From positions 560,763 to 624,762 of the forward strand of contig OZ253471.1 of NCBI GenBank assembly GCA_965261715.1: 64,000 nucleotides of DNA, read 5' to 3'. The position numbers and the translations under genes are program-made. Below the pieces are notes generated by a model. The model saw only the letters and a program-made list of their open reading frames with translations, had not been told where the DNA came from and did not search any database. This stretch comes from Dehalococcoidia bacterium. GTDB taxonomy: Bacteria; Chloroflexota; Dehalococcoidia; Bin125. Every line of letters begins with the position of its first letter. Position 1 is the first letter of the stretch. This document shows, one piece after another, positions 7,354 through 62,282 of this stretch.

Positions 7354-9654
7354 ATGGTCACCGCACAGTCGCAACCACAGTCCAGGGAAACCGAGCAGTA
7401 CAACGTCATCGGGACCCGACCGATCCGGCACGACGGTGTCGACAAGGTCACCGGCGCCGCGCAGTACGGCGCGGATCTGAGCCTGCCCGGCATGCTCGCC
7501 GGCCGCGTCCTGCGCAGCCCGCATGCCCACGCACGAATCGTCAGCATTGATACGTCCAAGGCCGAGGCTCTGGAGGGCGTGTTGGCAGTGATCACCAACG
7601 CCGACTTCCCCCGCGCCTCCGACGAGGTGATCGACACCGGCGAAGGCAGCGCTCAGCTCAACTGGGTGCTGGACAACGTCATCGCCTCGACCAAGGTGCT
7701 CTACAAGGGCCACGCGGTAGCAGCCGTCGCCGCGACCGACCACCACATCGCCGAGGACGCGCTCGAACTGATCGACGTCGAGTACGAGTTGCTCACGCCG
7801 GTCCTCGACGTCCGCGACGCCATGGTCGACGGTTCGCCGCTGCTCCACGACAGCCTGCACACGGGCGAAATGGACGGCTCCAAAAGCGACAACGCCAGCA
7901 ACACCGCGTCGCACCTACAGTTCGCCAAGGGTGACCTGGATGCAGGCTTCGCAGATGCCGACGTGGTCATCGAGCGCGAGTTCGAGACCTCGATGGCGCA
8001 CCAGGGCTACATCGAGCCACACAACGGCACCGCCTACTACCGCGCCGACGGCACGCTCGATATCTGGACCTCGACCCAGGGCGCATTCGTCGTCCGCGAC
8101 TCCGTTGCGCCGCTGCTCCAGCTTTCACCGTCGCGGGTGAAGGTGACGCCGATGGAGATCGGCGGCGGCTTCGGCGGCAAGATTCCCGTCTACCTCGAGC
8201 CACTGGCGGCGCTGCTCTCGCAGAAGACCGGCCGCCCGGTCCAGCTGACGATGAACCGCGAGGAAGTGCTGCTCGCCACAGGCCCGACCTCGGGCACCTA
8301 CATGCGGGTGCGCATGGGCGCGAAGCGCGACGGCACGCTGACTGCCGCCGACGTTCACCTGGCATTCGAGGCCGGCGCCTACCCTGGCTCGCCGGTCGGC
8401 GCCGGCGCGATGTGCGCCCTCGCCCCCTACGACATTCCCAGCCAGCGGATCGACGGCTACGACGTGGTCGTGAACAAGCCGAAGACCGCCGCCTACCGCG
8501 CACCCGGTGCGCCACAATCCGAGTTCGCCACCGAATCGGTGCTCAACGAGCTCGCCGAAGAGTTGGGCATCGACCCGCTTGAGATTCGGTTGCAGAACGC
8601 CTGCGAAGAGGGCGCTCAGCGTGCCGACGGCTTCACCTACGGCGTGATCGGCAATGTCGAGTGCATGACCGCTGCCCAGGAGTCGCCGCACTGGCAGTCG
8701 GAGCTCGAAGGCCCCAACCGCGGACGCGGCGTGGCCCACGGCTTCTGGTTCAACATCGGCTTCGAGTCCTCCGCTTACGCGCAGGTCAACGACGACGGCA
8801 CCGTTCCTCTGGTGCTCGGCTCGACCGACATCGGCGGCACACGAGCCTCGCTCGCGATGCAACTGGCTGAAACCCTCGGCATTTCGGCTGAGGAAGTGCG
8901 ACCGCACGTGGTCGACACCAACTCCGTCGGCTACACGCAGGTCACCGGCGGCAGCCGCACGACCTTCGCCGGTGGCTGGGCCGCCTACGAGACCGCCATG
9001 GACATCCGTCGCCAGATGGAAGAGCGCGCCGCCGTGATCTGGGAGTGCGACGCTGCGGACATCACCTACGGCGACGACGCGATCGTCCGCGGACCGGCCG
9101 ACGAGGATGGCAACGACCGCCAGTTCACCTTCAAGGAGCTCGCTGGCCAGCTCGCCTCGACCGGTGGCCGCATCGTTGGCCGTGCGGACGTCAACAAGAC
9201 CTCCAGCGGTCCCGCCTTCGCGACGCACATCGTCGATGTCGAAGTTGATCCCGAAACAGGCAAGGTGGATGTCCTTCGTTACACCGCGGTCCAGGACGCC
9301 GGCACCGCGATTCACCCCGCATACGTCGAGGGACAGATGCAGGGCGGCGTCGCGCAGGGCGTCGGCATGGCGCTGAACGAGGAGTACTACTACGACGACT
9401 CCGGCGATCTCAAGAACGCCAGCCTGCTTGACTACCGCATGCCGACCGCGCTCGACCTGCCGATGATCGAGCCGATCATCGTCGAGGTCCCGAACCCCGG
9501 TCATCCCTACGGTGTGCGCGGCGTCGGCGAAGTCCCGATCATTCCGCCGGCCCCGGCCATGCGCGCCGCCATCGCCAACGCGATCGGCGTGCACATGTCA
9601 GCGCTGCCGATGTCGCCGCGCGCCATCCTCGAAGCGACCGTGCTCGAGGAGTAA
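7354..9654 (+). CDS. Xanthine dehydrogenase-family molybdopterin-binding large (CoxL-like) subunit
   Basis: 766 aa with aldehyde oxidase/xanthine dehydrogenase a/b hammerhead and MoCo-binding regions. It has AYRAPG rather than the form-I CODH VAYRCSFR loop, so substrate is not assigned. Confidence 0.9.
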   Translation: MVTAQSQPQSRETEQYNVIGTRPIRHDGVDKVTGAAQYGADLSLPGMLAGRVLRSPHAHARIVSIDTSKAEALEGVLAVITNADFPRASDEVIDTGEGSAQLNWVLDNVIASTKVLYKGHAVAAVAATDHHIAEDALELIDVEYELLTPVLDVRDAMVDGSPLLHDSLHTGEMDGSKSDNASNTASHLQFAKGDLDAGFADADVVIEREFETSMAHQGYIEPHNGTAYYRADGTLDIWTSTQGAFVVRDSVAPLLQLSPSRVKVTPMEIGGGFGGKIPVYLEPLAALLSQKTGRPVQLTMNREEVLLATGPTSGTYMRVRMGAKRDGTLTAADVHLAFEAGAYPGSPVGAGAMCALAPYDIPSQRIDGYDVVVNKPKTAAYRAPGAPQSEFATESVLNELAEELGIDPLEIRLQNACEEGAQRADGFTYGVIGNVECMTAAQESPHWQSELEGPNRGRGVAHGFWFNIGFESSAYAQVNDDGTVPLVLGSTDIGGTRASLAMQLAETLGISAEEVRPHVVDTNSVGYTQVTGGSRTTFAGGWAAYETAMDIRRQMEERAAVIWECDAADITYGDDAIVRGPADEDGNDRQFTFKELAGQLASTGGRIVGRADVNKTSSGPAFATHIVDVEVDPETGKVDVLRYTAVQDAGTAIHPAYVEGQMQGGVAQGVGMALNEEYYYDDSGDLKNASLLDYRMPTALDLPMIEPIIVEVPNPGHPYGVRGVGEVPIIPPAPAMRAAIANAIGVHMSALPMSPRAILEATVLEE

Positions 9655-13672: not shown

Positions 13673-13699
13673 CGCCGCGTTTCCGCTCAGAGAGCTCTT

Positions 13700-14040
13700 T
13701 GCGTAAGTCCCCTTCTCCCCCCTTGCGGGGGAGATGCCGAAGGCAGAGGGGGGGACTCCCCATCTCAATGCCTGTCTGGTCGCTGGCCGAGCCCCCCCTC
13801 TCTGTCACTCCGTGACAACTCCCCCCGCAAGGAGACCTTTGAATAAGTCCCCTTCGCCCCCCTTGCGGGGGAGATGCCGAAGGCAGAGGGGGGGCTCCCC
13901 ATCTCAAGGCCTATCTGGTCGCTGGCGGCGGACCCCCCCTGTCACTCCGTGACATCTCCCCCCGCAAGGGGGGGAGAGGGGAATCATGAGTTTTTCGAAG
14001 GTCTCCGCAAGGGGGGAGAGGGGATAGGCGAGTTTTGCAA
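13700..14040. repeat. GC-rich palindromic tandem repeat (140-bp unit, about 2.4 copies)
   Basis: The unit 'ccccttgcgggggagatgccgaaggcagaggggggg(a/c)tccccatctcaa...gtcactccgtgaca(a/t)ctccccccgcaagg...' is seen directly. Exact 140-bp spacing (13721 vs 13861). Contains perfect hairpins with GCAA/TTGC loops. Lies between convergent gene ends. Confidence 0.8.
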
Positions 14041-14048
14041 AGGCCTCT

Positions 14049-14972: not shown

Positions 14973-14999
14973 GGTCGGTACCTCCAGCTTTGCTTTTGT

Positions 15000-15689
15000 T
15001 TATGCCTTCAGGCTAAACGGTGGGTAGCGGTCGGTGATCAGCATGGCCATGTAAGCCCCGACGCGGATCGCGTAGCGATTGACTCCCACCACGTAGTCGA
15101 ATAGCTGTCGGGGATACCGCCCCGTCGCCAGGATCGCGAACCAGGCAACGATGATCGCCAGCAGCGCGACCACCCCTGCAATGACCAACACGACGTAATG
15201 CGGAATGGCAAGTAGCCACTTGACGATGGGAAGGAAACGGTTCAACTGTTCCGCGTCAGGATAATCCAGATCCAGATGTACCGACTGCTCGTCGTCCGTT
15301 GCCGGATACTTGTCGGTGAGCAGCGAGGCGTAGGCCAGGATCCGCGTCTCAAAGCGCATCAGCTCGAGCAGGAAGTCGAACCACCAGCGCGGGTACTTGC
15401 CTCGGAACAGCAGCATCAGGACCAACGGCAGGAAGAAGGCGGCCGCGTAGCCGCCGCTCCAGTCGTCGCCTGATATCCAGCCTTCGGATGCAAAATAGAG
15501 GAAAATCGCCGGCGCCGCGGGCAACAGCGCCGAGACAATCAGAATCGGAATGATGAACGGGAGTCGCAGCAGGGTGCTGAGACGTTCCAGGCTCTCGGGA
15601 TAGTCGACTTCCAGTCGGGCCGGATACCGGTCGGGTGAGTGTTCCACAGAGTGTTCCTCCCTGTCGGCTGACGCGGGGTTATCACGCAC
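15000..15689 (-). CDS. Membrane protein with repeated (G/D)RYP motifs (DUF4389-like, from memory)
   Basis: 229 aa with two hydrophobic segments and three 'K/RYP' motifs (DKYPATDD, GRYPRQLFDY, DRYPPFSL). The domain name is a recollection, not a search result. Confidence 0.45.
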   Translation of the reverse strand: MRDNPASADREEHSVEHSPDRYPARLEVDYPESLERLSTLLRLPFIIPILIVSALLPAAPAIFLYFASEGWISGDDWSGGYAAAFFLPLVLMLLFRGKYPRWWFDFLLELMRFETRILAYASLLTDKYPATDDEQSVHLDLDYPDAEQLNRFLPIVKWLLAIPHYVVLVIAGVVALLAIIVAWFAILATGRYPRQLFDYVVGVNRYAIRVGAYMAMLITDRYPPFSLKA

Positions 15690-15744
15690 AGCGTGTGAGC
15701 GGGAGCCAAAGGTAACAGGAGCGCGGCAGCAGTTGGCAGCACGG

Positions 15745-16155
15745 CTAGGGAAGGGGACGGATCACGGACAGGAACCGTCGCCAGCTGCGCCGCGGCGATT
15801 CCCCACATCGTTGGAAGGTTGGAATCTGATCGAGCAGCGACGATAGCTTGACGTTCTCCAAACGGCCGATCTGTTTCTTCAGCCGAGTACGTTTGACCGT
15901 GATGATCTTGTCGATCATGAGCCAACTCAGCCTGTCGAGGCCGTTTTGTTGCGTCGGCTGAACCGGCTGGCGAAAGAGCGGAGCTTCTTGAGAGTCAGGA
16001 TTGCTCGTGAAGAGACAGACTGTCACCGACTCAAGAGCCGAAAAGTACTCATGTTGAAGCACGACGCCCGGTCGTCCTTTGGACGTGTAGTCGCCGCCGC
16101 CTTCTACGAACCAGATCTGACCGCAGGTCGCGGGATCCCTGGTCGATTGGTTCAT
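15745..16155 (-). CDS. PemK/MazF-family endoribonuclease toxin homolog
   Basis: ATG at 16155 gives 'MNQSTRDPATCGQIWFVEGGGDYTSKGRPGVVLQHEYFSALESVTVCLFTSNP...IDKIITVKRTRLKKQIGRL', which matches the MazF/Kid pattern (GxIwxVdf...K.RPxvVlq...TvvvxplTS...idqirTvdk.RL.k.iGxL). The ORF track's TTG start at 16167 is replaced by the in-frame ATG. Confidence 0.65.
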   Translation of the reverse strand: MNQSTRDPATCGQIWFVEGGGDYTSKGRPGVVLQHEYFSALESVTVCLFTSNPDSQEAPLFRQPVQPTQQNGLDRLSWLMIDKIITVKRTRLKKQIGRLENVKLSSLLDQIPTFQRCGESPRRSWRRFLSVIRPLP

Positions 16156-16416
16156 TAAGGCTGTCAACGAACGCTACATCCTCTGCCTCCTGCGGGCTAT
16201 GAGCGATCAGCATCGATTGGCGGCGGGCTTCCACGGCGAATGCGGGGTGAGCTGGGTCGGGCAATCTTGGATCGGCTACGCGGGACCGGCGGCTGAATAG
16301 ACGCGAGAACCGTTCGCGTCCACGCCGGAGGGACAGTATCGCGTTCGGGTAAACGGCCACTGGACTCTCCTTAACTGCCGATGCTTGTCGAACGTACGCC
16401 TGCACAAATGCCGATG

Positions 16417-16968
16417 TCAAGAAGTCCCATCGGTGTCCAGGCGCATCGGACGCTGCCAGAATCCGACATCCCAATAACGGTCGAACTTGCGACCGGCTTC
16501 CTTCCATACGCCTGTGAGCGCGTATCCGCGACTCTCGGTCAGGGCGACTGAGGCTTCGTTGGGCAGTGTGATCAGGGCGAACAATTGATGCAGTTCATCG
16601 ACCTTAAGCAGTTCGTCATACAGCGCACTCCAGAGCCTGGTTCCGAGGCCGCGGCCGACCACACCCGGCAACAGGTACACGCTGGTCGCGACGCTGCTGT
16701 TGTATGCGGCCTTGGGATAGAGCGGGCTGGAATAGGAGTGGCCGACGATGCGGCCGTCCGTCTCGACGGCGACCATGACACGATACGGCCCGGTATCGGA
16801 ATAGTTCGCGAACCACTGGCGCTTGGTCTCGACCGTGTGCGGCTCGGTGTCGAAGGTCGCCGGTGAGGTGAGAATGTAGTGGTTGTACAACTCGGCGAGT
16901 TGTTGCACGTCGGCGTCGACGGCTGAGCGGATCGTGAGAGCGTCGGTCATGGGAGCATCCGTGTGCAT
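16417..16968 (-). CDS. GNAT N-acetyltransferase (phosphinothricin acetyltransferase-like)
   Basis: 183 aa. 'IRSAVDADVQQLAELYNHYI...TFDTEP' and 'VGRGLGTRL' (acetyl-CoA binding Q/RxxGxG/A) are typical of the PAT/bar-type GNAT family. Confidence 0.8.
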   Translation of the reverse strand: MHTDAPMTDALTIRSAVDADVQQLAELYNHYILTSPATFDTEPHTVETKRQWFANYSDTGPYRVMVAVETDGRIVGHSYSSPLYPKAAYNSSVATSVYLLPGVVGRGLGTRLWSALYDELLKVDELHQLFALITLPNEASVALTESRGYALTGVWKEAGRKFDRYWDVGFWQRPMRLDTDGTS

Positions 16969-17980: not shown

Positions 17981-18889
17981 CTAACCGAAGAATCCGCCGC
18001 CGCCTGCGACGGCCGGCTTGAACAGTTCTTCCATCTGCTCGCCCGCGCCTTCGACGCTCCAGCGCTCGGTGCCGCGCACCTGGCGAATCACGGCGGGCTT
18101 GTTGAAGAGCTGCAGCTCGTACCCTGAAGCGCCGATGATCTGACCGTTGAGCCAGTCCGACTGCTCGGAGGCCATGTAGACCAGCGGCACCGCGACGTTC
18201 GCTGGTGAGCGCTCCGGGTCTTCCTCGGTCGAGTCGCCGATGTCGCTGCCCGCGCGCCGTCGATCCTCGGGAACGGTGTCGGTCATACGGGTCGAGGCGC
18301 CCGGCGAGATCGCATTAGCGGTCGCGCCGTAGCGCGGCAGCGCGTTGGCGCAGCTATAGGTGAAGCCGACGATGCCCATCTTGGCCGCCGCGTAGTTGGG
18401 CTGGCCGGGTGCGCCGAAGATGCCGGAGACCGACGAGAAGTTGATCAGTCGGTAGTGACCCTTGCGCTCGGAGCGCCAGTGGATCGAGGCGTACTTGGCC
18501 AGGTTGAAGTGACCCTTCATGTGCACATCGACAACGGCGTCCCATTCCGCCTCGGTCATGTTGAAGACCATGCGGTCGCGCAGGATACCCGCCGTGTTGA
18601 CAACGATGTCGAGGTCGCCGAAGTTGTCCAGCGCATCCTTGACGATGCTCTCGGCGGCGTTGTAGTCGGCGACCGAGGCGTAGTTGGCGACGGCTTCGCC
18701 GCCTGCGTCGCGGATGGCCGCAACCACTTCATCGGCGGGCGCCGCAGCGCCGCCGGAACCGTCAACGGCGCCACCGAGGTCGTTGACCACGATCTTCGCG
18801 CCTTGTGAAGCAAACAGCTTGGCCGTCTCGGCCCCAATTCCACGTCCGGCGCCGGTGACAATCGCCACTCGGCCGTCAAGCATCCCCAT
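17981..18889 (-). CDS. SDR-family oxidoreductase, paralog 2 (tandem duplicate)
   Basis: 302 aa that can be aligned end-to-end with 17035..17943, about 70% identical by eye. Same TGAGRGIG and YAAAK motifs. Confidence 0.85.
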   Translation of the reverse strand: MGMLDGRVAIVTGAGRGIGAETAKLFASQGAKIVVNDLGGAVDGSGGAAAPADEVVAAIRDAGGEAVANYASVADYNAAESIVKDALDNFGDLDIVVNTAGILRDRMVFNMTEAEWDAVVDVHMKGHFNLAKYASIHWRSERKGHYRLINFSSVSGIFGAPGQPNYAAAKMGIVGFTYSCANALPRYGATANAISPGASTRMTDTVPEDRRRAGSDIGDSTEEDPERSPANVAVPLVYMASEQSDWLNGQIIGASGYELQLFNKPAVIRQVRGTERWSVEGAGEQMEELFKPAVAGGGGFFG

Positions 18890-19020
18890 GTGGTGTTCCT
18901 CTCAGCCCGCAGCGCTATTTATTGAAGCTCGCGGAAAAAATTCACAGGTGGGCACAGGTTACCATCGCGCGTTCGACTTCCCCCTTGGAGGCTGTCCAGG
19001 AAGTCGTCATACCTCAAATT

Positions 19021-19173
19021 CCGTCATACCCGCGCTCCGCCGCCGGTATCTCGCTGTGCTTGGCACGAAAGTCAGGAACCTGCTGTGAGATCGAATCGGG
19101 CGCAGTTCCTCGGATGCGAGCGTCGGTGCAGCACTCGGCGAGATTGCCGCGACGGAGCGCGGCAATGACGGAG
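19021..19173. mobile_element. MITE-like element, copy A (about 153 bp)
   Basis: Left end 'CCGTCATACCCGCGCTCCGCCGCCGGTATCTCGC' and right end '...GCGAGATTGCCGCGACGGAGCGCGGCAATGACGGAG' form imperfect terminal inverted repeats of about 34 bp, each itself containing a hairpin. Three more copies are in the window. Confidence 0.6.
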
Positions 19174-19189
19174 TTGATTTGGGCATCTG

Positions 19190-19549
19190 TTAGTGCCGAG
19201 GGCCGCGCCGATTCGGATCAGGCATCGAGTCAGACAACTTGCGTGAGCCGGGCGTCTCTTCGATCACCGGCTCGAACAACCCGAGCTGGGGTGGACCCGT
19301 CAGCACGCCGGCCAGCGTGCCCTGAGCGTGACCCCTGCGGAACGCATCCGATTGCGTCCAGGCATGAAAGGCCGACACGTCTTCCCACGCCGAGTAAGAG
19401 ATGTAGTCGCCGGGTTCCGCGCCGCGGAGGAGCATGAATTGCACGAATCCCGGGACCTCCTGGAGATAGCTTTCGCGCTCTTTCCAGATCTGCTCCCACT
19501 CGGCCTCACGCTCGACAGTGACACTGAAGCGGTTCATCGCCAGATACAT
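19190..19549 (-). CDS. Antibiotic-biosynthesis-monooxygenase (ABM) domain protein
   Basis: ATG at 19549 (GAGG upstream) gives about 119 aa starting 'MYLAMNRFSVTVEREAEWEQIWKERESYLQEVPGFVQFMLLRG...YISYSAWEDVSAFHAW', a ferredoxin-like ABM pattern. The ORF track's 5' extension is Arg-rich and rejected. Confidence 0.6.
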   Translation of the reverse strand: MYLAMNRFSVTVEREAEWEQIWKERESYLQEVPGFVQFMLLRGAEPGDYISYSAWEDVSAFHAWTQSDAFRRGHAQGTLAGVLTGPPQLGLFEPVIEETPGSRKLSDSMPDPNRRGPRH

Positions 19550-19627
19550 GGTTCGCCTCAAATTCAGAAGAAATTCAAAGGGGTTGCGCCGTTCCGCGGA
19601 TCCGCCCGGCGCATAGACTGAGTCTAA

Positions 19628-19999
19628 ATGAAGCGCCGAATCCTCCTGTTCGCATTTCTCACAGCGGCGGTAGCAGTAGCGGTCCTCCTGCGGACGGCGT
19701 CTCCCAACGACGAATCCACGACAGTCGCTCAGCCCGCCCCACTCGTGGATCAAGCGACTGCTCTCGCCCTTGTCGACGATTGTGCCATCGCGCCCGAGCA
19801 GGCGCCGCAGTTGGCCTCGTCCGACGCGGCGCAGCCCATCCCTGTGTCGCCGCTCGCGGTCGCCGACATGGCCGTGTCGCGCACTGCCGATATCCGTGCC
19901 GAGACGGTCGCCCCCACGCCCGAAGCGACAGTCCCACGACCACAACGTCAGTCCCTCCGCATCACGATTCGGCCCCCTCCCGCGTCATCCTCTGCGTAA
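19628..19999 (+). CDS. Secreted hypothetical protein (signal peptide, Ala/Pro-rich)
   Basis: 'MKRRILLFAFLTAAVAVAVLL' signal-like N-terminus. No other similarity recognised. Confidence 0.35.
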   Translation: MKRRILLFAFLTAAVAVAVLLRTASPNDESTTVAQPAPLVDQATALALVDDCAIAPEQAPQLASSDAAQPIPVSPLAVADMAVSRTADIRAETVAPTPEATVPRPQRQSLRITIRPPPASSSA

Positions 20000-42496: not shown

Positions 42497-42596
42497 TGAA
42501 TAACTGCCATCGGTAGCCGCTCGGGGACCCCCCCTTCAGCCTTCGGCAGCTTCCCCCGCAAGGGGGGAAGCGGGAATCAGAGTTATTCAGAGCATT
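42497..42596. repeat. Small palindromic GC-rich element (about 100 bp) with terminal inverted repeats
   Basis: Flanks 'tctgaataact...agttattcaga' are inverted repeats. Core 'cttcccccgcaaggggggaag' is a perfect GCAA-loop hairpin. Related to the 13700 and 45530 repeat family. Confidence 0.5.
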
Positions 42597-45529: not shown

Positions 45530-45956
45530 ACGACAGAGACAGTTCCTCGCTCCCCCTGCATGGAGACCTTTGCGTAACTCCTCTTCTCCGCTCTCGCGGA
45601 GACTTGCGCGTAAATCCCCTTCTCCCCCCTTGCGAAGACCTTTGAAAACTCCCCTTTGCCCCCCTTGCGGGGGAGATGCCGTAGGCAGAGGGGGGGCTCC
45701 CCATCCCCTGGCCTATCTAGTCGCTGTGCGCGGACCCCCCCTCTGTCACTCCGTGACATCTCCCCCCGCAAGGGGGGGAGAGGGGATTCGGGAGTTTTGC
45801 AAAGGTCTCCTTGCAGGGGAGATGCCGTAGGCAGAGGGGGGGCTCCCCATCCCCTGGCCTATCTAGTCGCTGTGCGCGGACCCCCCCTCTGTCACTCCGT
45901 GACATCTCCCCCCGCAAGGGGGGGAGAGGGGATTCGGGAGTCTTGCAAGGGTCTCC
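45530..45956. repeat. GC-rich palindromic tandem repeat (about 157-bp unit, about 2.5 copies)
   Basis: 'gagatgccgtaggcagagggggggctccccatcccctggcctatctagtcgctgtgcgcggaccccccctctgtcactccgtgacatctccccccgcaagggggggagaggggattcgggag' is repeated with a 157-bp period (45662 vs 45819). Same family as 13700..14040. Confidence 0.8.
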
Positions 45957-47666: not shown

Positions 47667-47837
47667 ACGCTCAGCGTACTAGTGGATGTCGTAGAGCGAT
47701 TGCTAGGGAAATCGAGGCTTGTATCGGAGTGAGAACGGGGACGGAGTATTTCGCCTATATCCTGTCGAGGCCTGACGGCGAACCTGTAGGGGCGTCCGTT
47801 GTGAAGGTGTCTCAGATGTCTCGCAACCCTCCGATTC

Positions 47838-47989
47838 CGTCATTCCCGCGCTCCGTCGCGGGAATCTCGCCGAGTGCTGCACCGGCGCACGAACCTCGGG
47901 AACCTCGCTCGCTTCCATCGCTCTGTCGGTTCCTGACTTTCGCGCCGAGCGCAGCGAGATACCCGCGGCGGAGCGCGGGTATGACGGAG
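47838..47989. mobile_element. MITE-like element, copy B (about 152 bp)
   Basis: 'CCGTCATTCCCGCGCTCCGTCGCGGGAATCTCGCCGAG...GCGAGATACCCGCGGCGGAGCGCGGGTATGACGGAG'. Both termini contain perfect 7-8 bp hairpins. The internal segment is inverted relative to copy A. Confidence 0.6.
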
Positions 47990-48030
47990 GTAGAGACTCT
48001 GCGACTGGAGTGAGCAGCCAGCCAGCACGG

Positions 48031-49203
48031 TCAAACGGCGGCGGCGATTCTTCCTGTGGTGAACCCGCGAGCCCAGGCGTCGGCGGCGTCGATGGCTTCG
48101 ATGTTGGGATTCTTTGTGCTGCGGTGTGCGTCCATGGTCTGGTTCACGTAGTCGGCGATTTCTGTGAACCCGATCCGACGCTCAAGGAAGGCCTCGACCG
48201 CGATCTCGTCGGCTGCCGCCATCGCGGCTGGGTAGGTTCCGCCGGCTCGGCCAGCCTGTTGCGCAAGCTTGAGGCACGGGTAGCGGTCAAGGTCCGGCCG
48301 CGAGAAGTTGAGCGTGCCCACAGAGGCGAGGTCAAGCGGCTCAACTGTTGGCTCCAGCCGTTGCGGATATGAGAGCGCGAGCTGGATCGGGAGCTTCATG
48401 TCAGGATAGCCAAGCTGCGCCTTGACCGAGCCGTCTCCGAATTCCACAAGCGAGTGAACGATTGATTCGGCGTGCTGCACGATCTCCACGCGCTCGTAAG
48501 GGACGTCAAAGAGCCACTTGGCCTCGATCGTCTCCATGCCTTTGTTCATTAGCGTGGCGCTGTCGATCGTGATCTTGTCGCCCATGTTCCAGGTGGGATG
48601 GTTGAGCGCCTGCTCGGGCGTGACATCGGCAAGTTGGTCGGCAGGCAGGTGACGCAGCGCGCCGCCGGACGCCGTCAGCAGGATGCGGCGGATCTCATGG
48701 CCGTCCTCGCCCCACAGGCACTGCCAGATGGCCGAGTGCTCGGAGTCGACCGGTCGCAGTTGGCCGCCGCCGCGATCAACAGCGTCGCGGACGAGCTGCC
48801 CGGCCATCACGACGACTTCCTTATTGGCCAGCGCGACCGCGCCGCCTCGTTCCAGTGACATCAGCGTTGGTTCCAGGCCTGCGCGTCCAGCAGTACCGAC
48901 GACCAGGACATCTCCGTCTGGATCTTCTGCCATGGCGTCCATCGGCGTGACGGTCGTCCCGCTGTCGGTGGCGATCTGTGACAGTCGCTGTTCGTCCTCA
49001 CTGGCCGCCCAGAGATATGTCGGGTGAAACTCGTGCGCCTGCGCTTCGAGCGCATCGAGGTTGCGTCCGGCGGCGAGTCCGAGGACGTTGAAGCGTCCAG
49101 GCATGGCGCGCACGACGTCCAGCGTCTGCCGGCCGATGCTGCCGGTCGAGCCAAGCAGTACGAGATTGATCGGAGCGTCGGTCACGATAGTTACGCCGTC
49201 CAT
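48031..49203 (-). CDS. dxr: 1-deoxy-D-xylulose 5-phosphate reductoisomerase
   Basis: 'LVLLGSTGSIGRQTLDVV' NADPH-binding N-terminus. Full-length Dxr pattern. Confidence 0.9.
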   Translation of the reverse strand: MDGVTIVTDAPINLVLLGSTGSIGRQTLDVVRAMPGRFNVLGLAAGRNLDALEAQAHEFHPTYLWAASEDEQRLSQIATDSGTTVTPMDAMAEDPDGDVLVVGTAGRAGLEPTLMSLERGGAVALANKEVVVMAGQLVRDAVDRGGGQLRPVDSEHSAIWQCLWGEDGHEIRRILLTASGGALRHLPADQLADVTPEQALNHPTWNMGDKITIDSATLMNKGMETIEAKWLFDVPYERVEIVQHAESIVHSLVEFGDGSVKAQLGYPDMKLPIQLALSYPQRLEPTVEPLDLASVGTLNFSRPDLDRYPCLKLAQQAGRAGGTYPAAMAAADEIAVEAFLERRIGFTEIADYVNQTMDAHRSTKNPNIEAIDAADAWARGFTTGRIAAAV

Positions 49204-50087
49204 TGCAAGAAGAAGAATACGACGGGCAGTCCGAAGAGGAGCGAGTCGAGCCGGTCGAGCACGCCGCCATGTCCGGGAATGAGATTGGAGGAGTCCTTGA
49301 CGTCCATCGCTCGCTTGAACAGCGATTCCGCCAGGTCGCCAATCTGTGAAGCGATCGGCAGCACAATGGCGAGCAACACGAGCGGCCAGATTTCAGCATC
49401 GAGGTTGAGGATCTGGTCTAACGCGATCGTCGCCCCGAACCCGCCCAGCCAACCAAAGATCGCGCCTTCGACGGTCTTGTTTGGAGAGACCGAGGGCGCA
49501 AGTTGGTGTCGACCAAGCAGGCGACCGCCGGCATAGGCAGAAGCGTCGGTGGACATGATGGCCAGCACGGCCAGGAGCATCCAGTCGGTTCCTTGCTCTG
49601 AACCGCGAACGGCGATGAACGTCGCGCCGGGGATGGCGAGGTACGCGGTCGCCGCAAGCATCGCGAGTCCACGATTGAGGATTGGCTGGAGCTGGTCAGG
49701 GCGCGGTTGTTCAACCGTGCGGACGGCGGCGGTTGTCGTGACCGCGGCGATACCGATGATCCCGGCGAGGATCGGCCAGAGCAGTGGGATGTTGGCGTCG
49801 GCCGTGGCGACCCCGATGATCGCGCCAGTCGCCGCGACGGCAACGAGGAACAGCGCGCTGCGAATCTTGAGTTTTACGATGACCGCGATCTCGCCCAGCG
49901 CAACGACCAGACTCAACGCCATCAACGCTGAAAACAGCGGTCCACCGATCAAGATGGCAGCGATGATAATCGGCATTCCGACCGCCGCGCTGGCCAACCG
50001 TAGACCGAGGCTGCTGCCGAACAGGCGGTCACGCATCGCGGTCGCCTTCGTCGTCAACCTCGTCGTCCGCCGAACGTCGCTGGCCAA
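49191..50087 (-). CDS. cdsA: Phosphatidate cytidylyltransferase
   Basis: 298-aa polytopic membrane protein with C-terminal 'GHGGVLDRLDS' CTP-transferase signature. Confidence 0.8.
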   Translation of the reverse strand: MASDVRRTTRLTTKATAMRDRLFGSSLGLRLASAAVGMPIIIAAILIGGPLFSALMALSLVVALGEIAVIVKLKIRSALFLVAVAATGAIIGVATADANIPLLWPILAGIIGIAAVTTTAAVRTVEQPRPDQLQPILNRGLAMLAATAYLAIPGATFIAVRGSEQGTDWMLLAVLAIMSTDASAYAGGRLLGRHQLAPSVSPNKTVEGAIFGWLGGFGATIALDQILNLDAEIWPLVLLAIVLPIASQIGDLAESLFKRAMDVKDSSNLIPGHGGVLDRLDSLLFGLPVVFFFLQWTA

Positions 50088-50173
50088 GAATGACCCCGAT
50101 CACCGTAAAGACGAGCGCGTAGCAACCGCCCGGGCCGGGCGCCATGATTTCTTGTCGTCTTGCGTGAGGTGGG

Positions 50174-50974
50174 TTAATCGCCATTGGCGGGTCGTCCGCC
50201 GAAGTTTCTGGTCCGATTCGCGTACTCGGCCAGGGCATGATCCACGTCTTGCTCGCGGAAATCGGGCCAGAAGGTGTCGGAGAAGACGTACTCCGCATAG
50301 GCGGCCTGCCAGAGCAGGAAGTTGGAGATGCGTTGATCCCCGCCGGTGCGGATGATCAGGTCGGGGTCGGGCAGCTCGCAGGTGTAGAGGTAGTCGGAGA
50401 GGGTGCGTTCACTGATGTCTTCCGGCCGGACGCCATCTGCGACGATGCGGCGCACTGCATCGACGAGCTCCGCGCGGGCGCCGTAGTTGAAGGCGACACA
50501 GACGGTCATCCGGTTGTTGTGTTGCGTCAGCTGGATCGCTTCGTCGATCTTGCGGCGGAGGCGAGCGTCGAGTGCATCGATTCGGCCGATGTATTGCAGC
50601 TTGACGCCGGCCTCGTGCAGCGGCTTGACCTCGCGGTCGATGGTCGAGGAGAGGATGCGCATCAGTCCCCGTACCTCGGGCCGCGGGCGCTTCCAGTTCT
50701 CGGTGGAGAAGGCGAACAGCGTGAGACAGCGGACGCCGCGTTCGGCGAAGGACTCGATGGCGGCGCGAATGTTCTCAGTTCCGGCGCGGTGCCCGTCGGT
50801 TGGGCGCAGCCCGCGCTGAGCTGCCCAGCGACCATTGCCGTCCATAATGACGGCGACGTGCTCGGGGATGTGAGCCTCAGCCAAGCTCTCCGCGGCGTGG
50901 ACGCCATTGGTGGAGGGTGTGATGACGGCGTGACTGGTTGGCAGAGTGATGGTAGAACCGGATCGATTTGACAC
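50174..50974 (-). CDS. uppS: Isoprenyl transferase (undecaprenyl-diphosphate synthase)
   Basis: 'HVAVIMDGNGRWA' and 'LTLFAFSTENWKRP' cis-prenyltransferase signatures. Confidence 0.9.
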   Translation of the reverse strand: MSNRSGSTITLPTSHAVITPSTNGVHAAESLAEAHIPEHVAVIMDGNGRWAAQRGLRPTDGHRAGTENIRAAIESFAERGVRCLTLFAFSTENWKRPRPEVRGLMRILSSTIDREVKPLHEAGVKLQYIGRIDALDARLRRKIDEAIQLTQHNNRMTVCVAFNYGARAELVDAVRRIVADGVRPEDISERTLSDYLYTCELPDPDLIIRTGGDQRISNFLLWQAAYAEYVFSDTFWPDFREQDVDHALAEYANRTRNFGGRPANGD

Positions 50975-50977
50975 GTA

Positions 50978-51550
50978 CTAAACCTCGAGGAGCTCTTGCT
51001 CCTTCTGACTGCCCACAGCATCAACTTTAGCGATGAACTGGCTGGTCAGAGTGTCGAGTTGGGTTTCTGCTCGGTGTTCCTCGTCCTGGGACAGGTCGCC
51101 ATCTCGCTGCATATGGCGGAGGTCGTCGTGGATGTGGCGTCGCACATTGCGGATAGCAACGCGCGACGCTTCAGACTTCTGGTGCACCACCTTGACCAGG
51201 TCACGTCTTCGCTCCTCGGTCAGCTCGGGCAACGCGAGCCGAATCAGGATGCCGTCGGACTGTGGATTGATTCCGATGTCGGAGGTCTGGATGGCTTTGG
51301 TGATCGGGTCGAAGGCGTTCTTGTCCCACGGCTGAATCGCAATCAGGCGGGCCTCCGGGGTGGAGATTGTCGCCAGTTGATTCAGTGCCATGGTGGTTCC
51401 GTAATAGTTGATTCGCATCTGGTCGACGAGCGAGGTGTGGGCCCGACCGGTGCGCACAGCCATCAGGTCCTGTTGCAGTGCGCTCAGCGCGCCGGTCATG
51501 CGGGAGTTCGCGTCGTCGAACGCCAGGTCAAGGAGCTCGTTGTCGGACAT
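50978..51550 (-). CDS. frr: Ribosome recycling factor
   Basis: 190 aa with the full RRF pattern ('...VRTGRAHTSLVD...IRNVRRH...'). Confidence 0.9.
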   Translation of the reverse strand: MSDNELLDLAFDDANSRMTGALSALQQDLMAVRTGRAHTSLVDQMRINYYGTTMALNQLATISTPEARLIAIQPWDKNAFDPITKAIQTSDIGINPQSDGILIRLALPELTEERRRDLVKVVHQKSEASRVAIRNVRRHIHDDLRHMQRDGDLSQDEEHRAETQLDTLTSQFIAKVDAVGSQKEQELLEV

Positions 51551-51582
51551 GTCGCGCTCCTGTGGATGGTTCGGCGGGATGG

Positions 51583-52341
51583 TCAGCCGGCCAAGACGGT
51601 GGCTCCATGATCGACGCGCGTACCGGCCAGTTTAAGGTCGGGGCCGTCGATCACCGTGCTCACGATAGCGTTAGGCGCTTCGATGTTGAACACGACGATG
51701 GGCAGCGAATGTTCTTCGCAGAGTGCCAGCGCCGAGGCGTCCATCAAGACCCCAAGATTCTGCTGCAACGCCTCCCGATAGTTGAGTCGTGCGTAACGCT
51801 TGGCGTCGGGATACAGGGCCGGATCGGCGGTATAGACGCCGTCGGTGCCGTGCTTGCCCATCAGCAGTTGGTCGGCGTCGAGTTCAATGCCACGCAGCGC
51901 CGCGGCAGTGTCGGTGGTGACATAGGGATTGCCGGTTCCACCGACGCAGAGCACGATGCGCCCCTTTTCCAGGTGACGAATCGCGCGGCGGCGAATGAAG
52001 ATCTCCGCCACCTGGCGGACTTGTAGCGCCGACATCGTCCGCACTTCGCAGCCGGTCGCTTCGATCGCGTCCTGAAGCGCGAGCCCGTTGATGATGGTGG
52101 CAAGCATGCCGGCGTAGTGCGCGGTCGCCTCAGTCATGCCCAGCTCGCTGGCCAGCCGGCCGCGGAAGAGATTGCCGCCACCGACCACGACGCCGATTTC
52201 GACGCCGCGATTGCGGCATTCGACAATCTGCCGGGCGACCTCGTTGAGTGCATCCGAATCGATTCCGGAGTCGCGCTGTCCCTGTAGCGATTCACCGGAG
52301 ACCTTGAGGACGACTCTCGGCGTTTGCCGTTGGTCGGTCAC
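51583..52341 (-). CDS. pyrH: UMP kinase
   Basis: GTG at 52341 gives 'VTDQRQTPRVVLKVSGESL...GVVVGGGNLFRG'. The ORF track's 100-codon 5' extension is Arg-rich and rejected. Confidence 0.9.
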   Translation of the reverse strand: MTDQRQTPRVVLKVSGESLQGQRDSGIDSDALNEVARQIVECRNRGVEIGVVVGGGNLFRGRLASELGMTEATAHYAGMLATIINGLALQDAIEATGCEVRTMSALQVRQVAEIFIRRRAIRHLEKGRIVLCVGGTGNPYVTTDTAAALRGIELDADQLLMGKHGTDGVYTADPALYPDAKRYARLNYREALQQNLGVLMDASALALCEEHSLPIVVFNIEAPNAIVSTVIDGPDLKLAGTRVDHGATVLAG

Positions 52342-52391
52342 TGCGCGCCCCGATTCGCTGAGTCCAACAGATACGGGTCGAAGATGATCTG

Positions 52392-52886: not shown

Positions 52887-52981
52887 GTTGCTGGCTCCTC
52901 AGGTAGTTGGTTGGGCTTGGAGTTGGATTGCCACTGGACATGCAAGTGGGCATGCAAGTGGCGTGATGTGTGTCTTGTGAC

Positions 52982-53737: not shown

Positions 53738-53904
53738 CCGGCTCCTCAGATGGTTCAGTCGTAGAGTCACGTCGAACTGGTCCCGCAGGCGGGCATTCGC
53801 ATCAAGTATAGGGGTGTGGTCGCAATACGCGCACCGAATCCGGCTTCGTGATAACTTGCAGGTGTTGTCTGATATCGCATGGTGTTTTTGCGCGGAGGAA
53901 GTAC

Positions 53905-54222: not shown

Positions 54223-54273
54223 CCTCCTCAATCCCAGCATTTCTTCACGAAGCAGCTCTTCAGGGCCCCGTCC

Positions 54274-54738: not shown

Positions 54739-54746
54739 CTCGATTC

Positions 54747-54899
54747 CCGTCATTCCCGCGCTCCGCCGCGGGAATCTCGCCGAGTTCTGCACTCCACGTC
54801 CATCAGGCGCCCAACCTTCCAGCCACAATCATCCAGCCGCCAAGCGGCATCCGAGTTGCTTGCAGCGAGATACCCGCGGCAAGCGCGGGTATGACGGAG
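54747..54899. mobile_element. MITE-like element, copy C (about 153 bp)
   Basis: 'CCGTCATTCCCGCGCTCCGCCGCGGGAATCTCGCCGAG...GCGAGATACCCGCGGCAAGCGCGGGTATGACGGAG' lying between the dtd stop and the nadC stop. Confidence 0.6.
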
Positions 54900-54934
54900 T
54901 GGAGACGGATATGAGGGAGCCTTATGAACAGCCC

Positions 54935-55846
54935 CTAGTCCGGTGCGATCTCGAGGGCGATGTCCAATGCGATATCGAGCGACGGAGCTGAGTGCGTGAG
55001 TGCGCCCAGAGAGATGTAGTCGACTCCGGCGCGGGCGATGGCGGGAATTTGCTCGATCGTGATGCCGCCGCTGGCCTCGGTCTTGGCGTTGTAGACGCGG
55101 GCGACTTCTACGGCCGGTGGCAGGTCGTCGATCGCGAAGTTGTCGAGCAGCAACGAGCTTGCTCCGGCGTCTAGAGCCTCACGCGCCTCGTCGAGATTGA
55201 CGACTTCGACTTCAACGCCGGTGGCGGGACCGACGTTGGCGATGGCTGCCGCGACGGCGTCGGCGAGAGTGCCGCCGGACTGCCGGACCGCGGCGATGTG
55301 GTTGTCCTTGATTAGCACGCCGGACGCCAGTGAGTCGCGATGATTGAGTCCGCCACCGCAACGTACGGCGTATCGCTCGGCGGGACGGAGGCCGGGCGTG
55401 GTCTTTCGAGTGTCGAGAATCTTGGTCCGTGAACCGGCGGCGGCGACTGCCTGAGCAGTAAGCGTCGCTGTCCCGCTCAGGCGCTGTAGCCAGTTGAGCG
55501 CGGTGCGCTCCGCTCGCAGCAGAGGATCCAGTTGACCGCCGACAATGGCGATCTGCTGACCGGCCGAAATTCGGTCGCCATCGCTCACTTCAGGCAGGAA
55601 GCGCACGTCTGGATCGAGCGCGGCGAATGCTGCCAGAGCGAAATCGAGCCCGCAGACCACACCGTCGGCGCGCGCCGTGAGGTGGGCATTGCCCTGTCGC
55701 CAGTCGATCCATCTGCTGAGCGAACTGGTCGTGACGTCGAAATCGGCCCGATCCTCGGCGAGGGTCGCGTCGACCAGGCGTTGGACGATGGTGAGATCTA
55801 AAGCGGTCATTCGTGGGCCAACTGCCAATAGCTGTGTTGTTGCCAA
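54935..55846 (-). CDS. nadC: Nicotinate-nucleotide pyrophosphorylase (carboxylating)
   Basis: 'GVLIKDNHIAA' and the QPRTase pattern. Overlaps nadB upstream. Confidence 0.9.
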   Translation of the reverse strand: MATTQLLAVGPRMTALDLTIVQRLVDATLAEDRADFDVTTSSLSRWIDWRQGNAHLTARADGVVCGLDFALAAFAALDPDVRFLPEVSDGDRISAGQQIAIVGGQLDPLLRAERTALNWLQRLSGTATLTAQAVAAAGSRTKILDTRKTTPGLRPAERYAVRCGGGLNHRDSLASGVLIKDNHIAAVRQSGGTLADAVAAAIANVGPATGVEVEVVNLDEAREALDAGASSLLLDNFAIDDLPPAVEVARVYNAKTEASGGITIEQIPAIARAGVDYISLGALTHSAPSLDIALDIALEIAPD

Positions 55847-61984: not shown

Positions 61985-62009
61985 ACGGGTGTCTCAGATC
62001 TGCAAGATT

Positions 62010-62160
62010 CGTCATTCCCGCGCCCTGTCGCGGGAATCTCGACGAGTCCGGCGCCGACGCTCGAACCTGAGGAACCGCGCCCGTTTCAATCGCTCAGCCG
62101 ACTCCTGGCTTTCGTGACGAGCACTGCGAGATACTCGCGGCGGAGCGCGGGTATGACGGA
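62010..62160. mobile_element. MITE-like element, copy D (about 151 bp)
   Basis: 'CGTCATTCCCGCGCCCTGTCGCGGGAATCTCGACGAG...GCGAGATACTCGCGGCGGAGCGCGGGTATGACGGAG'. Confidence 0.6.
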
Positions 62161-62282
62161 GATCGATATCGGGCGGCCTTTAAGACGCTTTCAAGATCGC
62201 AATGCCGTCTTGCTGATTCGATCGCCCAGGCGCCCGTAGAGCCGGATTGCTCCAGCGTGTTCGCCGACCACGTCAAGCGTGA

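What the first reader, a model, noticed from the sequence alone, without database searches (positions are those of the whole stretch)
19021..19173. Four-copy ~152-bp MITE-like element with hairpin-containing terminal inverted repeats
Four intergenic copies exist: 19021-19173, 47838-47989, 54747-54899 and 62010-62160. They share about 34-bp terminal inverted repeats (CCGTCAT(A/T)CCCGCGCTCCG(C/T)CGCGGGAATCTCGC ... GCGAGATACCCGCGGCGGAGCGCGGGTATGACGG), and each terminus is itself a perfect 7-8 bp hairpin (TCCCGCG-n6-CGCGGGA).

The internal ~80 bp diverge between copies, and in copy B the internal segment is inverted relative to copy A. That is what a small non-autonomous transposable element, or a structured-RNA/REP-like element, would show.

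Four copies in 64 kb implies a high genome-wide copy number. No matching transposase is in the window. Artefactual ORFs crossing the elements all translate to '...SARFPRRSAGMTE...' or 'SYPRSAAGIS', which is a convenient search handle.
Basis: seen in the sequence. Interest (0 to 1): 0.65.

Follow-up and report, generated by a model that had tools for sequence, protein, structure and literature searches.

The report
CGTC-tagged REP hairpin pairs, Dehalococcoidia
The four repeats are real. They are inverted pairs of a small "REP"-type DNA hairpin, a known and common kind of bacterial intergenic repeat, seen here in a bacterial group (Dehalococcoidia) where I found no earlier report of this type.

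Summary
All four copies exist at the stated places, far beyond chance. Each is a 149-bp pair of inverted 32-nt hairpin units: an unpaired CGTC head, a 9-bp stem starting with A/T pairs, a 5-6 nt loop and a CTCG tail. The heads point outward and an 85-nt spacer lies between the units.

This is the anatomy of "CGTC-tagged REPs" arranged as head-outside heterodimers (Di Nocera et al. 2013). That superfamily includes Neisseria dRS3/NIME. It has no known transposase and was not reported from Chloroflexi.

An exact-match scan found more than 100 loci, all in about 11 Dehalococcoidia MAGs. Across 89 dimers:
- The two ends differ systematically (ATTCCC versus ATACCC stems), and each difference is compensated within its own hairpin.
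- The spacer has no excess structure and diverges freely, yet total length stays at 147-150 bp.
- There is no target-site duplication.
- Copies lie after gene ends: 34 convergent, 30 tandem, 5 divergent.
- Orthologous copies keep their units (95-98%) better than the flanking genes (84%).

Copy A is the whole element inverted, not an internal inversion. Copies A, B and D sit inside a 200-bp unit with an outer inverted repeat. The classical MITE and structured-RNA readings are not supported. This is a new member of a known kind, of modest interest.

The parts
19022..19170 (-). Copy A: 149-bp head-outside dimer of CGTC-tagged hairpin units, whole element on the minus strand
   Evidence: It lies 19 nt after the stop of the ABM-domain gene 19190-19945(-) and 132 nt before the start of the SDR gene 17981-18889(-).
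19139..19170 (-). Copy A, T-type unit. The stem is the variant ATTGCCGCG/CGCGGCAAT, a compensated C-G to G-C change.
19054..19138 (-). Copy A spacer (85 nt), main spacer class
19022..19053 (-). Copy A, A-type unit (ATACCCGCG / CGCCGGTAT, one C.C mismatch)
18990..19005 (-). Copy A, degenerate arm of the outer inverted repeat (GACTTCCTGGACAGCC on the minus strand)
19183..19197 (-). Copy A, degenerate arm of the outer inverted repeat (GGCACTAACAGATGC on the minus strand)
47838..47986 (+). Copy B: 149-bp dimer between the dxr stop and the rseP start, antisense to both genes
   Evidence: An orthologous dimer is present in OZ247431 (L105 9217-9364).
47838..47869 (+). Copy B, T-type unit: CGTC-AT-TCCCGCG-CTCCGT-CGCGGGA-AT-CTCG
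47870..47954 (+). Copy B spacer (85 nt)
47955..47986 (+). Copy B, A-type unit (CGAGATACCCGCG-GCGGAG-CGCGGGTATGACG)
47807..47819 (+). Copy B, left arm of the outer inverted repeat (GTGTCTCAGATGT)
48001..48019 (+). Copy B, degenerate right arm of the outer inverted repeat
54748..54896 (+). Copy C: 149-bp dimer between the convergent genes dtd and nadC, with a different spacer class
   Evidence: The site is empty in GCA_022825265 (L106), where the two genes overlap by 4 nt.
54748..54779 (+). Copy C, T-type unit
54780..54865 (+). Copy C spacer (86 nt)
54866..54896 (+). Copy C, A-type unit with the 5-nt loop GCAAG
54921..54938 (+). One-sided end (CTTATGAACAGCCCCTAG) that resembles the TIR of the GGGCCTGTTCACAT/CTAG MITE family. 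It abuts the nadC stop codon.
   Evidence: resemblance by eye.
62010..62158 (+). Copy D: 149-bp dimer 25 nt after the stop of the alpha/beta-hydrolase gene 61016-61984(+)
62010..62041 (+). Copy D, T-type unit (loop CCCTGT)
62042..62126 (+). Copy D spacer (85 nt)
62127..62158 (+). Copy D, A-type unit (ACTCGCG/CGCGGGT, one T.G pair)
61989..62001 (+). Copy D, left arm of the outer inverted repeat (GTGTCTCAGATCT)
62173..62188 (+). Copy D, degenerate right arm of the outer inverted repeat

Best explanation
**What it is.** The four elements are head-outside ('HH') heterodimers of CGTC-tagged repetitive extragenic palindromes (REPs). The basic unit is about 32 nt: an unpaired CGTC head, a 9-bp stem whose first two pairs are A-T and T-A, a 5-6 nt loop (CTCCGN or CTTGN) and a CTCG tail. 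Two units of slightly different stem type (ATTCCC/ATTGCC at one end, ATACCC at the other) face each other across a spacer. The spacer sequence is free but its length is held, at 85 nt in the main class and about 33 nt in a second class.

**Shown here.** The family is dispersed in many Dehalococcoidia genomes and sits after gene ends. Its hairpins are kept intact while the spacers decay. It has no target-site duplication and no linked transposase in the sample. Its hairpins are insertion targets and rearrangement points for other small mobile elements.

**Inferred.**
- The hairpin, not the long end-to-end stem, is the functional form.
- Units are made, copied or homogenised by a hairpin-specific enzyme acting in trans, by analogy with the RAYT Y1 transposases of GTAG REPs. 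That enzyme is unidentified, as it is for all CGTC REPs.
- Where the elements are transcribed as 3' UTRs, the hairpins act as terminator or mRNA-stabiliser elements, as REPs do in E. coli.
For: **Unit anatomy.** Of 178 units in 89 dimers, 148 have a perfect 9-bp stem, 139 have a 6-nt loop and 39 a 5-nt loop. On 103 distinct units, 98% of stem cells are paired. Stem position 3 is U-A in 59 and A-U in 41; position 4 is C-G in 93 and G-C in 7. None of 500 shuffles reaches the observed covariation.

**Ends.** T-type/A-type heterodimers make up 80 of 89 dimers. The end-to-end stem would therefore carry T.T and A.A mismatches, whereas each local hairpin is perfect.

**Context.** 34 copies lie between convergent genes, 30 between tandem genes and 5 between divergent genes.

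**Distribution.** More than 101 exact-match loci were found, all in Dehalococcoidia/Chloroflexi MAGs.

**Conservation.** In six orthologous pairs, units are 95-98% identical, flanks 84% and spacers 79% (range 56-100%). The ortholog of copy B in L105 keeps both hairpins with only 64% spacer identity.

**Negative results that fit.** There is no TSD. The spacer has no excess structure.

**Target role.** A C-rich MITE is inserted at the hairpin apex with a duplication of G+loop+CG in L061 and L050. An inversion in L103/L104 has its breakpoints inside copies B and C.

**Function, by analogy.** REP325 of E. coli acts as both terminator and stabiliser.
Against: - Most loops are 6 nt and the tail is CTC(G). 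The four described CGTC families have 4-5 nt loops and mostly CCA tails.
- I could not compare the unit with the published family consensuses, because the figures are not held.
- Similarity across phyla could be convergence on a simple GC-rich palindrome.
- The main subfamily (A, B, D) lies inside a 200-bp unit with its own outer inverted repeat. A 96-bp dimer rides inside a true MITE with a CTAG duplication. So at least some copies may have spread as cargo of ordinary transposon-derived elements.
- No trans-acting enzyme was found, and no expression data exist.
Confidence: 0.72

Rival explanations
1. Classical MITE. The elements are deletion derivatives of a DDE-transposase insertion sequence. 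That transposase mobilises them by binding the terminal inverted repeats, and each insertion leaves a target-site duplication.
For: - The ends are inverted repeats, and the elements are small, non-coding and dispersed.
- A, B and D-type copies lie in an exactly 200-bp unit with an outer inverted repeat, GTGTCTCAGAAGT.
- A 96-bp dimer sits in a MITE with GGGCCTGTTCACAT TIRs and a CTAG duplication, with a clean filled site (L015) and empty site (L005).
- Composite copies in OZ242281 are 94-97% identical in their spacers, which suggests recent spread.
Against: - There is no TSD at or near the CGTC ends in 84 elements.
- The ends are systematically non-identical, with changes compensated inside each hairpin.
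- Many spacer classes have no outer repeat.
- Single units and remnants occur.
- No partner insertion sequence with these ends, or with either outer TIR, is present in 0.89 Mb.
- Orthologous sites carry different arrangements rather than simple presence or absence.
Confidence: 0.13
2. Recombination or attachment sites. The hairpin units are substrates of a site-specific recombinase or an IS110/Piv-type enzyme, as Neisseria dRS3 is for Nf prophages. The dimers and mosaics are by-products of repeated recombination.
For: - dRS3 is itself a CGTC-1 REP, and phage integrates into it.
- Syntenic sites hold different unit arrangements in related genomes.
- Another small element inserts precisely at the hairpin apex.
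- An inversion has both breakpoints inside dimers B and C.
Against: - No recombinase or transposase lies next to units in the sampled loci or in the window.
- There is no match in IMG/VR viral contigs.
- Arrays are rare; isolated dimers of fixed length dominate.
- The apex insertions carry ordinary 8-9 bp duplications, so they look like target preference of a transposon rather than site-specific exchange.
- The inversion junctions carry IS remnants that could by themselves explain the inversion.
Confidence: 0.08
3. Functional RNA element evolved in place. This would be a small RNA, a riboregulator or a dedicated bidirectional terminator whose whole 149 nt is the functional unit.
For: - The single strand folds very stably (z = -2.7 to -9.4).
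- Copies lie after stop codons.
- REPs in E. coli act in 3' UTRs.
Against: - The folding stability comes from the inverted ends alone. The spacers fold like shuffled sequence and diverge to 30-45% identity.
- Both orientations occur relative to the flanking genes: 19 against 11 in tandem contexts.
- There are only sub-threshold hits to generic miRNA-hairpin models in Rfam.
- No T-run follows the hairpins.
Confidence: 0.05

Closest known systems
CGTC-tagged REPs (Di Nocera, De Gregorio & Rocco 2013, BMC Genomics 14:522), especially the 9-bp-stem families CGTC-3 and CGTC-4
   Same: An unpaired CGTC head, a 9-bp stem beginning with A/T pairs, a short unpaired tail, predominant head-outside (HH) dimers, frequent heterodimers, spacers that vary in sequence but keep their length, location between convergent and tandem genes, and no flanking transposase.
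   Different: The loop is mostly 6 nt (CTCCGN) rather than 4-5 nt. The tail is CTC(G) rather than CCA. The spacer is 85 nt and tightly fixed. The host phylum is Chloroflexota, which is not among the five phyla reported. Some copies are nested in larger TIR-bounded units.
Neisseria intergenic mosaic elements (NIME: dRS3 - RS - dRS3)
   Same: dRS3 is classed as a CGTC-1 REP. Palindromic ATTCCC...GGGAAT units flank many unrelated 50-150 bp sequence families. Syntenic sites differ between relatives, and the units act as insertion or recombination points.
   Different: dRS3 is ATTCCC-N8-GGGAAT, whereas here the unit is ATTCCC-N12-GGGAAT. Neisseria has long arrays, whereas here isolated dimers of fixed length dominate. 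No phage or recombinase link was found here.
REPINs and RAYTs (Bertels & Rainey 2011) and E. coli BIMEs
   Same: Two inverted REPs are separated by a less conserved spacer of characteristic length. Single units look like decayed dimers. Inheritance is mostly vertical, with long persistence. Alternating unit types (Y/Z in BIMEs) parallel the T-type and A-type units here.
   Different: Those families carry a GTAG tag and have a dedicated Y1 transposase gene flanked by REPs. Here the tag is CGTC and no such gene was found.
QMITE2 of Coxiella burnetii
   Same: It is a small TIR-bounded element that carries a REP hairpin, lies in 3' UTRs and intergenic regions, and is a hot spot for insertion of another mobile element.
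   Different: QMITE2 carries a GTAG REP and has 7-11 bp direct repeats, and IS1111 is the inserting element.

Membership tests
CGTC-tagged REP superfamily | Short stem-loop repeat tagged at one end by an unpaired CGTC (or TGTC/CCTC) tetranucleotide | tested here: met
   G4, T5 and C6 are invariant and C3 is present in at least 90% of 103 distinct units.
CGTC-tagged REP superfamily | Stem of 8-9 bp whose first and second pairs are complementary A/T residues | tested here: met
   The stem is 9 bp. Pair 1 is A-U in 101 of 103 units and pair 2 is U-A in 98 of 103. 98% of stem cells are paired.
CGTC-tagged REP superfamily | Loop of 4-5 nt (a descriptive range for the four published families) | tested here: not met
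   139 of 178 units have a 6-nt loop and 39 have a 5-nt loop. The paper itself notes exceptions with other loop lengths. I take this as a sign of a new family, not as exclusion from the superfamily.
CGTC-tagged REP superfamily | Short unpaired 3-nt tail (mostly CCA) | tested here: inconclusive
   A conserved unpaired tail exists, but it is CTC(G), present in at least 90% of units, not CCA.
CGTC-tagged REP superfamily | Mostly HH dimers (tags outside), with heterodimers common and arrays rare | tested here: met
   89 HH dimers were found against about 47 unpaired units, many of which have degenerate partners. 80 of the 89 dimers are heterodimers.
CGTC-tagged REP superfamily | Located between unidirectional or convergent ORFs, close to 3' ends | tested here: met
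   34 convergent, 30 tandem and 5 divergent contexts.
CGTC-tagged REP superfamily | No transposase gene flanked by the units | tested here: inconclusive
   None was found in 0.89 Mb of sampled loci or in the window. The complete genomes could not be scanned.
One of the published families CGTC-1 to CGTC-4 | Match to the family consensus (Figure 2 of PMC3733652) | not testable with these tools
   The figures are not held in the library. The differences in loop and tail suggest a separate family.
MITE (DDE-transposon derived) | Terminal inverted repeats | tested here: met
   The 32-nt ends are inverted, though they differ at two positions.
MITE (DDE-transposon derived) | Target-site duplication flanking each copy | tested here: not met
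   Direct repeats of 2-8 nt at the ends, or up to 3 nt outside them, occur no more often than in permuted flanks (84 elements).
MITE (DDE-transposon derived) | A related autonomous insertion sequence with the same ends | tested here: inconclusive
   Not found in the sampled loci.
REPIN/RAYT system | GTAG-tagged REPs | tested here: not met
   The tag is CGTC.
REPIN/RAYT system | A single-copy Y1 (HUH) transposase gene flanked by the REPs | tested here: inconclusive
   tblastn with IS608 TnpA, E. coli RAYT and IS200 TnpA, all recalled from memory, gave no hit better than E = 0.2 in 0.89 Mb. The best hit is a deacetylase-like ORF.
Neisseria NIME/dRS3 | dRS3 consensus ATTCCC-N8-GGGAAT | tested here: not met
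   The unit here is ATTCCCGCG-N5/6-CGCGGGAAT, that is ATTCCC-N11/12-GGGAAT.
Known structured RNA family (Rfam) | Match at or above a family's gathering score | tested here: not met
   Only a tRNA in the window reaches its threshold. The element gives sub-threshold hits to miRNA-precursor models, 34.8 bits against a threshold of 75.

The most novel reading that the evidence does not exclude
The dimers are substrates of a still unknown, dedicated hairpin-recognising enzyme or architectural protein.

- The strict spacing (149 +/- 1 bp, or 97 bp) despite free spacer sequence would reflect a protein that measures the distance between two non-identical hairpins.
- The orientation of the T-unit to A-unit axis follows local GC skew: 38 of 55 independent copies, p = 0.02. 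That would point to a single-strand, replication-linked process.

Because complete, closely related Dehalococcoidia chromosomes exist, this lineage could make the open question 'what makes and moves CGTC REPs' directly testable by phylogenetic profiling.
Probability: 0.15. Interest if true: 0.6.

Novelty: new member of a known kind. Interest (0 to 1): 0.3.

Why it matters
CGTC-tagged REPs are widespread, and they include Neisseria dRS3 and some Rickettsia palindromic elements. Unlike GTAG REPs, they have no known enzyme that makes or moves them.

A well-populated family in Chloroflexota extends the superfamily to another phylum. It also provides many closely related complete genomes in which gains, losses and candidate enzymes could be traced.

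On the practical side, these hairpin pairs generate spurious ORFs with '...AGMTE...' peptides. They mark hot spots for insertion of other small elements, and they mark an inversion breakpoint. All of this matters for annotating and comparing these MAGs.

Tried and rejected
- **RAYT / IS200 / IS608 homologues.** tblastn over all loci gave no credible hit. The best one overlapped a deacetylase-like ORF.
- **Recurrent ORFs.** All-against-all clustering of ORFs from 101 loci, to find a recurrent transposase, gave only paralogous metabolic families and ORFs created by the repeats themselves.
- **Gene-carrying elements.** Widely spaced inverted unit pairs that might enclose a gene were not found. 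The ORFs near multi-unit loci L016 and L025 encode methyltransferase, HEPN-like, PIN-like and vWA-type proteins by my reading of the translations.
- **Autonomous IS for the outer TIR families.** None was found.
- **Viral contigs.** The scan gave 0 hits.
- **Rfam.** Nothing was found at gathering or E-value thresholds beyond generic hairpin noise.
- **Spacer structure.** There is no excess folding.
- **Target-site duplications.** None were found.
- **Replichore assignment.** Locus positions and local skew did not give a clean picture, so the orientation bias stays tentative.
- **Sponge origin.** I recalled from memory that these MAGs are sponge symbionts, but could not confirm it in the paper I checked. 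I make no claim.
- **Clean filled/empty pairs for the 149-bp and 200-bp forms.** Orthologous sites are either too diverged or occupied by other repeats.

Full report
**1. Observation**

Reading the four places shows the same architecture each time. A core runs from CGTCAT to ATGACG at 19022-19170, 47838-47986, 54748-54896 and 62010-62158.

A degenerate pattern for one terminus gives 13 matches in the window against 0.00 expected from 100 dinucleotide-preserving shuffles. All 13 lie in these four elements.

- Copy A is not an element with a flipped interior. The two ends are distinguishable, and A is simply the whole element on the minus strand. One end has the stem ATTCCCGCG/CGCGGGAAT (ATTGCCGCG/CGCGGCAAT in A). 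The other has ATACCCGCG/CGCGGGTAT.
- The stems are 9 bp, not 7-8 bp.
- Copy C has an unrelated spacer class. Spacer identity is 75-79% among A, B and D and 58-66% to C.

**2. Where the window comes from**

A protein look-up places the window on a 3.53-Mb circular metagenome-assembled chromosome, ENA ERZ25071132. The region contains rpsB-tsf-pyrH-frr-uppS-cdsA-dxr-rseP.

The window is collinear with, and 95-97% identical to, the Dehalococcoidia MAG chromosome OZ253456 in shared segments.

No called gene in the window has a transposase or recombinase Pfam domain.

**3. Family size and spread**

I scanned one genome per species for the exact left terminus, CGTCATTCCCGCG-N6-CGCGGGAATCTCG. All are in Dehalococcoidia/Chloroflexi MAGs, about 11 genomes, and at least 25 stretches come from OZ253456 alone.

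**4. Anatomy across 0.89 Mb of loci**

- I found 239 units and 89 inverted pairs.
- The main size class is 147-150 bp, with 42 copies of exactly 149 bp. A second class is 93-100 bp.
- In 80 of 89 pairs one end is T-type (ATT...) and the other A-type (ATA...).
- Of 178 units in pairs, 148 have a perfect 9-bp stem. 139 have a 6-nt loop (CTCCGN) and 39 a 5-nt loop (CTTGN).
- On 103 distinct units, 98% of stem cells pair. Stem position 3 is U-A in 59 and A-U in 41. Position 4 is C-G in 93 and G-C in 7. None of 500 shuffles reaches the observed covariation.

As a single strand the whole element folds into one long stem, but with T.T and A.A mismatches exactly at the positions that are compensated inside each local hairpin. 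The conserved object is therefore the local hairpin, not the end-to-end duplex.

**5. The interior is a spacer, not a structure**

- The 85-nt spacers fold no better than shuffled sequence (median z = 0.0; 6% below -2; n = 62).
- Ungapped pairwise identity is bimodal: 60-80% within the main subfamily and 30-45% otherwise.
- Length nevertheless stays at 149 +/- 1 bp.
- Rfam has no family for the element.

**6. Not a classical MITE at these ends**

- Direct repeats of 2-8 nt at the ends, or up to 3 nt outside them, occur no more often than in permuted flanks (84 elements).
- Unpaired units mostly have degenerate or interrupted partners. About ten look like truncated dimers.
- No RAYT/IS200-like sequence, no recurrent transposase ORF and no gene-carrying element with these ends was found.

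**7. Context**

With a simple GC3-based gene call, 34 dimers lie between convergent genes, 30 between tandem genes and 5 between divergent genes. They usually lie some tens of nucleotides from a stop codon.

In tandem contexts the element is antisense to the genes in 19 cases and sense in 11, so orientation is not set by transcription.

Orientation does follow the sign of local GC skew. This holds for 46 of 63 copies (p = 7e-4), and for 38 of 55 after orthologs are removed (p = 0.02). There is no relation to gene-strand bias. I could not turn this into a clean replichore picture, so I treat it as a hint only.

**8. Evolution**

- In six orthologous pairs, units are 95-98% identical, flanking (mostly coding) DNA 84% and spacers 79%.
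- The ortholog of copy B in OZ247431 (L105 9217-9364) keeps both hairpins and the length (148 bp) with 64% spacer identity. There both units are A-type.
- The C site is empty in GCA_022825265, where nadC and dtd overlap by 4 nt. In OZ247431 the same site is filled by unrelated repeats.
- Elsewhere, the same intergenic site holds a 150-bp dimer in one genome and a 99-bp dimer in another, or a single unit in either orientation.
- Within a genome the best spacer identity between paralogous 149-bp copies is 86-88%.

The family is therefore old and mostly vertically inherited. Its hairpins are maintained by selection or by concerted evolution.

**9. Larger units and neighbours**

- A, B and D-type copies lie inside an exactly 200-bp unit bounded by GTGTCTCAGAAGT ... 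ACTTCTGAGACAC. In the window the left arms are at 47807-47819 and 61989-62001.
- A 96-bp dimer is the core of a MITE with GGGCCTGTTCACAT TIRs and a CTAG duplication, with a clean filled/empty pair in L015 and L005. Some dimers therefore travel as cargo of ordinary MITEs.
- The units are also targets. A C-rich MITE (TIR GGAGACCTTTGCGTAA...) is inserted at the apex of the A-unit hairpin. It is flanked by a perfect 9-bp duplication, GACGGAGCG, in L061 and by a diverged 8-bp duplication in L050.
- In CAXXUV01 the segment corresponding to window 48031-54743 is inverted. Both breakpoints lie inside copies B and C, and the junctions carry IS5-like (DUF772) remnants.

**10. Comparison with what is known**

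Di Nocera et al. 2013 (PMC3733652) define CGTC-tagged REPs by these features:

- an unpaired CGTC tag;
- 8-9 bp stems whose first pairs are A/T;
- 4-5 nt loops and a 3-nt tail;
- mostly HH dimers, meaning tags outside, with frequent heterodimers;
- location between unidirectional and convergent ORFs;
- no dedicated transposase.

They list five phyla, not including Chloroflexi, and they equate Neisseria dRS3 with CGTC-1. NIMEs are dRS3 pairs flanking more than 100 families of 50-150 bp sequences (PMC1797815).

The elements here meet the tag, stem, dimer, heterodimer, spacer and context features. They differ in loop length (mostly 6 nt), tail (CTC) and host phylum. I therefore file them in the CGTC superfamily, as what is probably a new family.

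The held literature contains no description of them in Dehalococcoidia.

**11. Mechanism**

*Shown:* conserved local hairpins, length-held spacers, position after gene ends, no TSD, vertical persistence, and a role as insertion and rearrangement points.

*Inferred:* hairpin-specific processing by an unknown trans-acting enzyme, by analogy with RAYTs acting on GTAG REPs. Also inferred is a 3'-UTR terminator or stabiliser effect where the elements are transcribed, by analogy with E. coli REP325.

**12. Verdict**

The feature is real and common in this lineage. It is a new member of a known kind, of modest interest.

Noticed in passing
window 13690-14047, about 42552-42567, and 45562-45956; L061 1380-1616; L050 4807-5044: A second repeat family: C-rich MITE-like elements with TIR GGAGACCTTTGCGTAA... 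In the window it includes a 146-bp unit repeated twice at 97% identity (45663-45956). In other genomes the same family is inserted exactly at the apex of CGTC A-unit hairpins. The flanking duplication consists of G + loop + CG: a perfect 9 bp, GACGGAGCG, in L061.
   Followed up: partly
window 48031-54743 versus L103/L104 (CAXXUV010000008, 92-94% identical): The dxr-to-dtd segment is inverted in a related genome. Both breakpoints fall inside dimers B and C, and the junctions carry DUF772 (IS5-like) transposase remnants plus C-rich repeats.
   Followed up: partly
L002 about 400-460, L041, L042, L086, L090, L096 and others: A 24-nt hairpin (CCGTTCAGGCCGGGGGCAGGCTCC) sits at the same position inside the 5' stem of the A-type unit in at least 10 dimers of different spacer classes. 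It is either a tiny site-specific insertion or a unit variant spread by conversion.
   Followed up: no
L015 5343-5516 (filled) versus L005 7466-7488 (empty): A MITE with GGGCCTGTTCACAT terminal inverted repeats and a CTAG duplication carries a 96-bp CGTC dimer as its core. A one-sided, similar end lies next to copy C at window 54921-54938.
   Followed up: partly
L016 3088-3240; L054 4766-4865: Tandem arrays built from half-units: a 26-nt period repeated 6 times (GGCGGGAATGACGAGAGAGGATGGGG) and a 42-nt period repeated 3 times.
   Followed up: no
window 14987-16438: A variable segment relative to OZ253456 (L034). The window carries a MazF/PemK toxin gene (15745-16167) where the relative has different DNA that includes a CGTC dimer.
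   Followed up: partly
84 oriented dimers in all loci: The orientation of the T-unit to A-unit axis follows the sign of local GC skew (38 of 55 independent copies, p = 0.02) but not gene-strand bias. This may be a replication-strand effect.
   Followed up: partly
L104 about 9165-9190: Next to the dxr stop is a unit of a different type, CGTCATTCCCGCG-AAA-GCGGGAAC. By my recollection its shorter stem and loop resemble proteobacterial CGTC repeats. It suggests that more than one CGTC family occurs in these genomes.
   Followed up: no
window 60843-60929 (-): A tRNA gene (Rfam RF00005, 56.8 bits), about 1.1 kb from copy D. No link to the element is evident.
   Followed up: no
They are artefacts of the repeat and can mislead gene callers. 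My own GC3-based caller accepted 54701-54991.
   Followed up: yes
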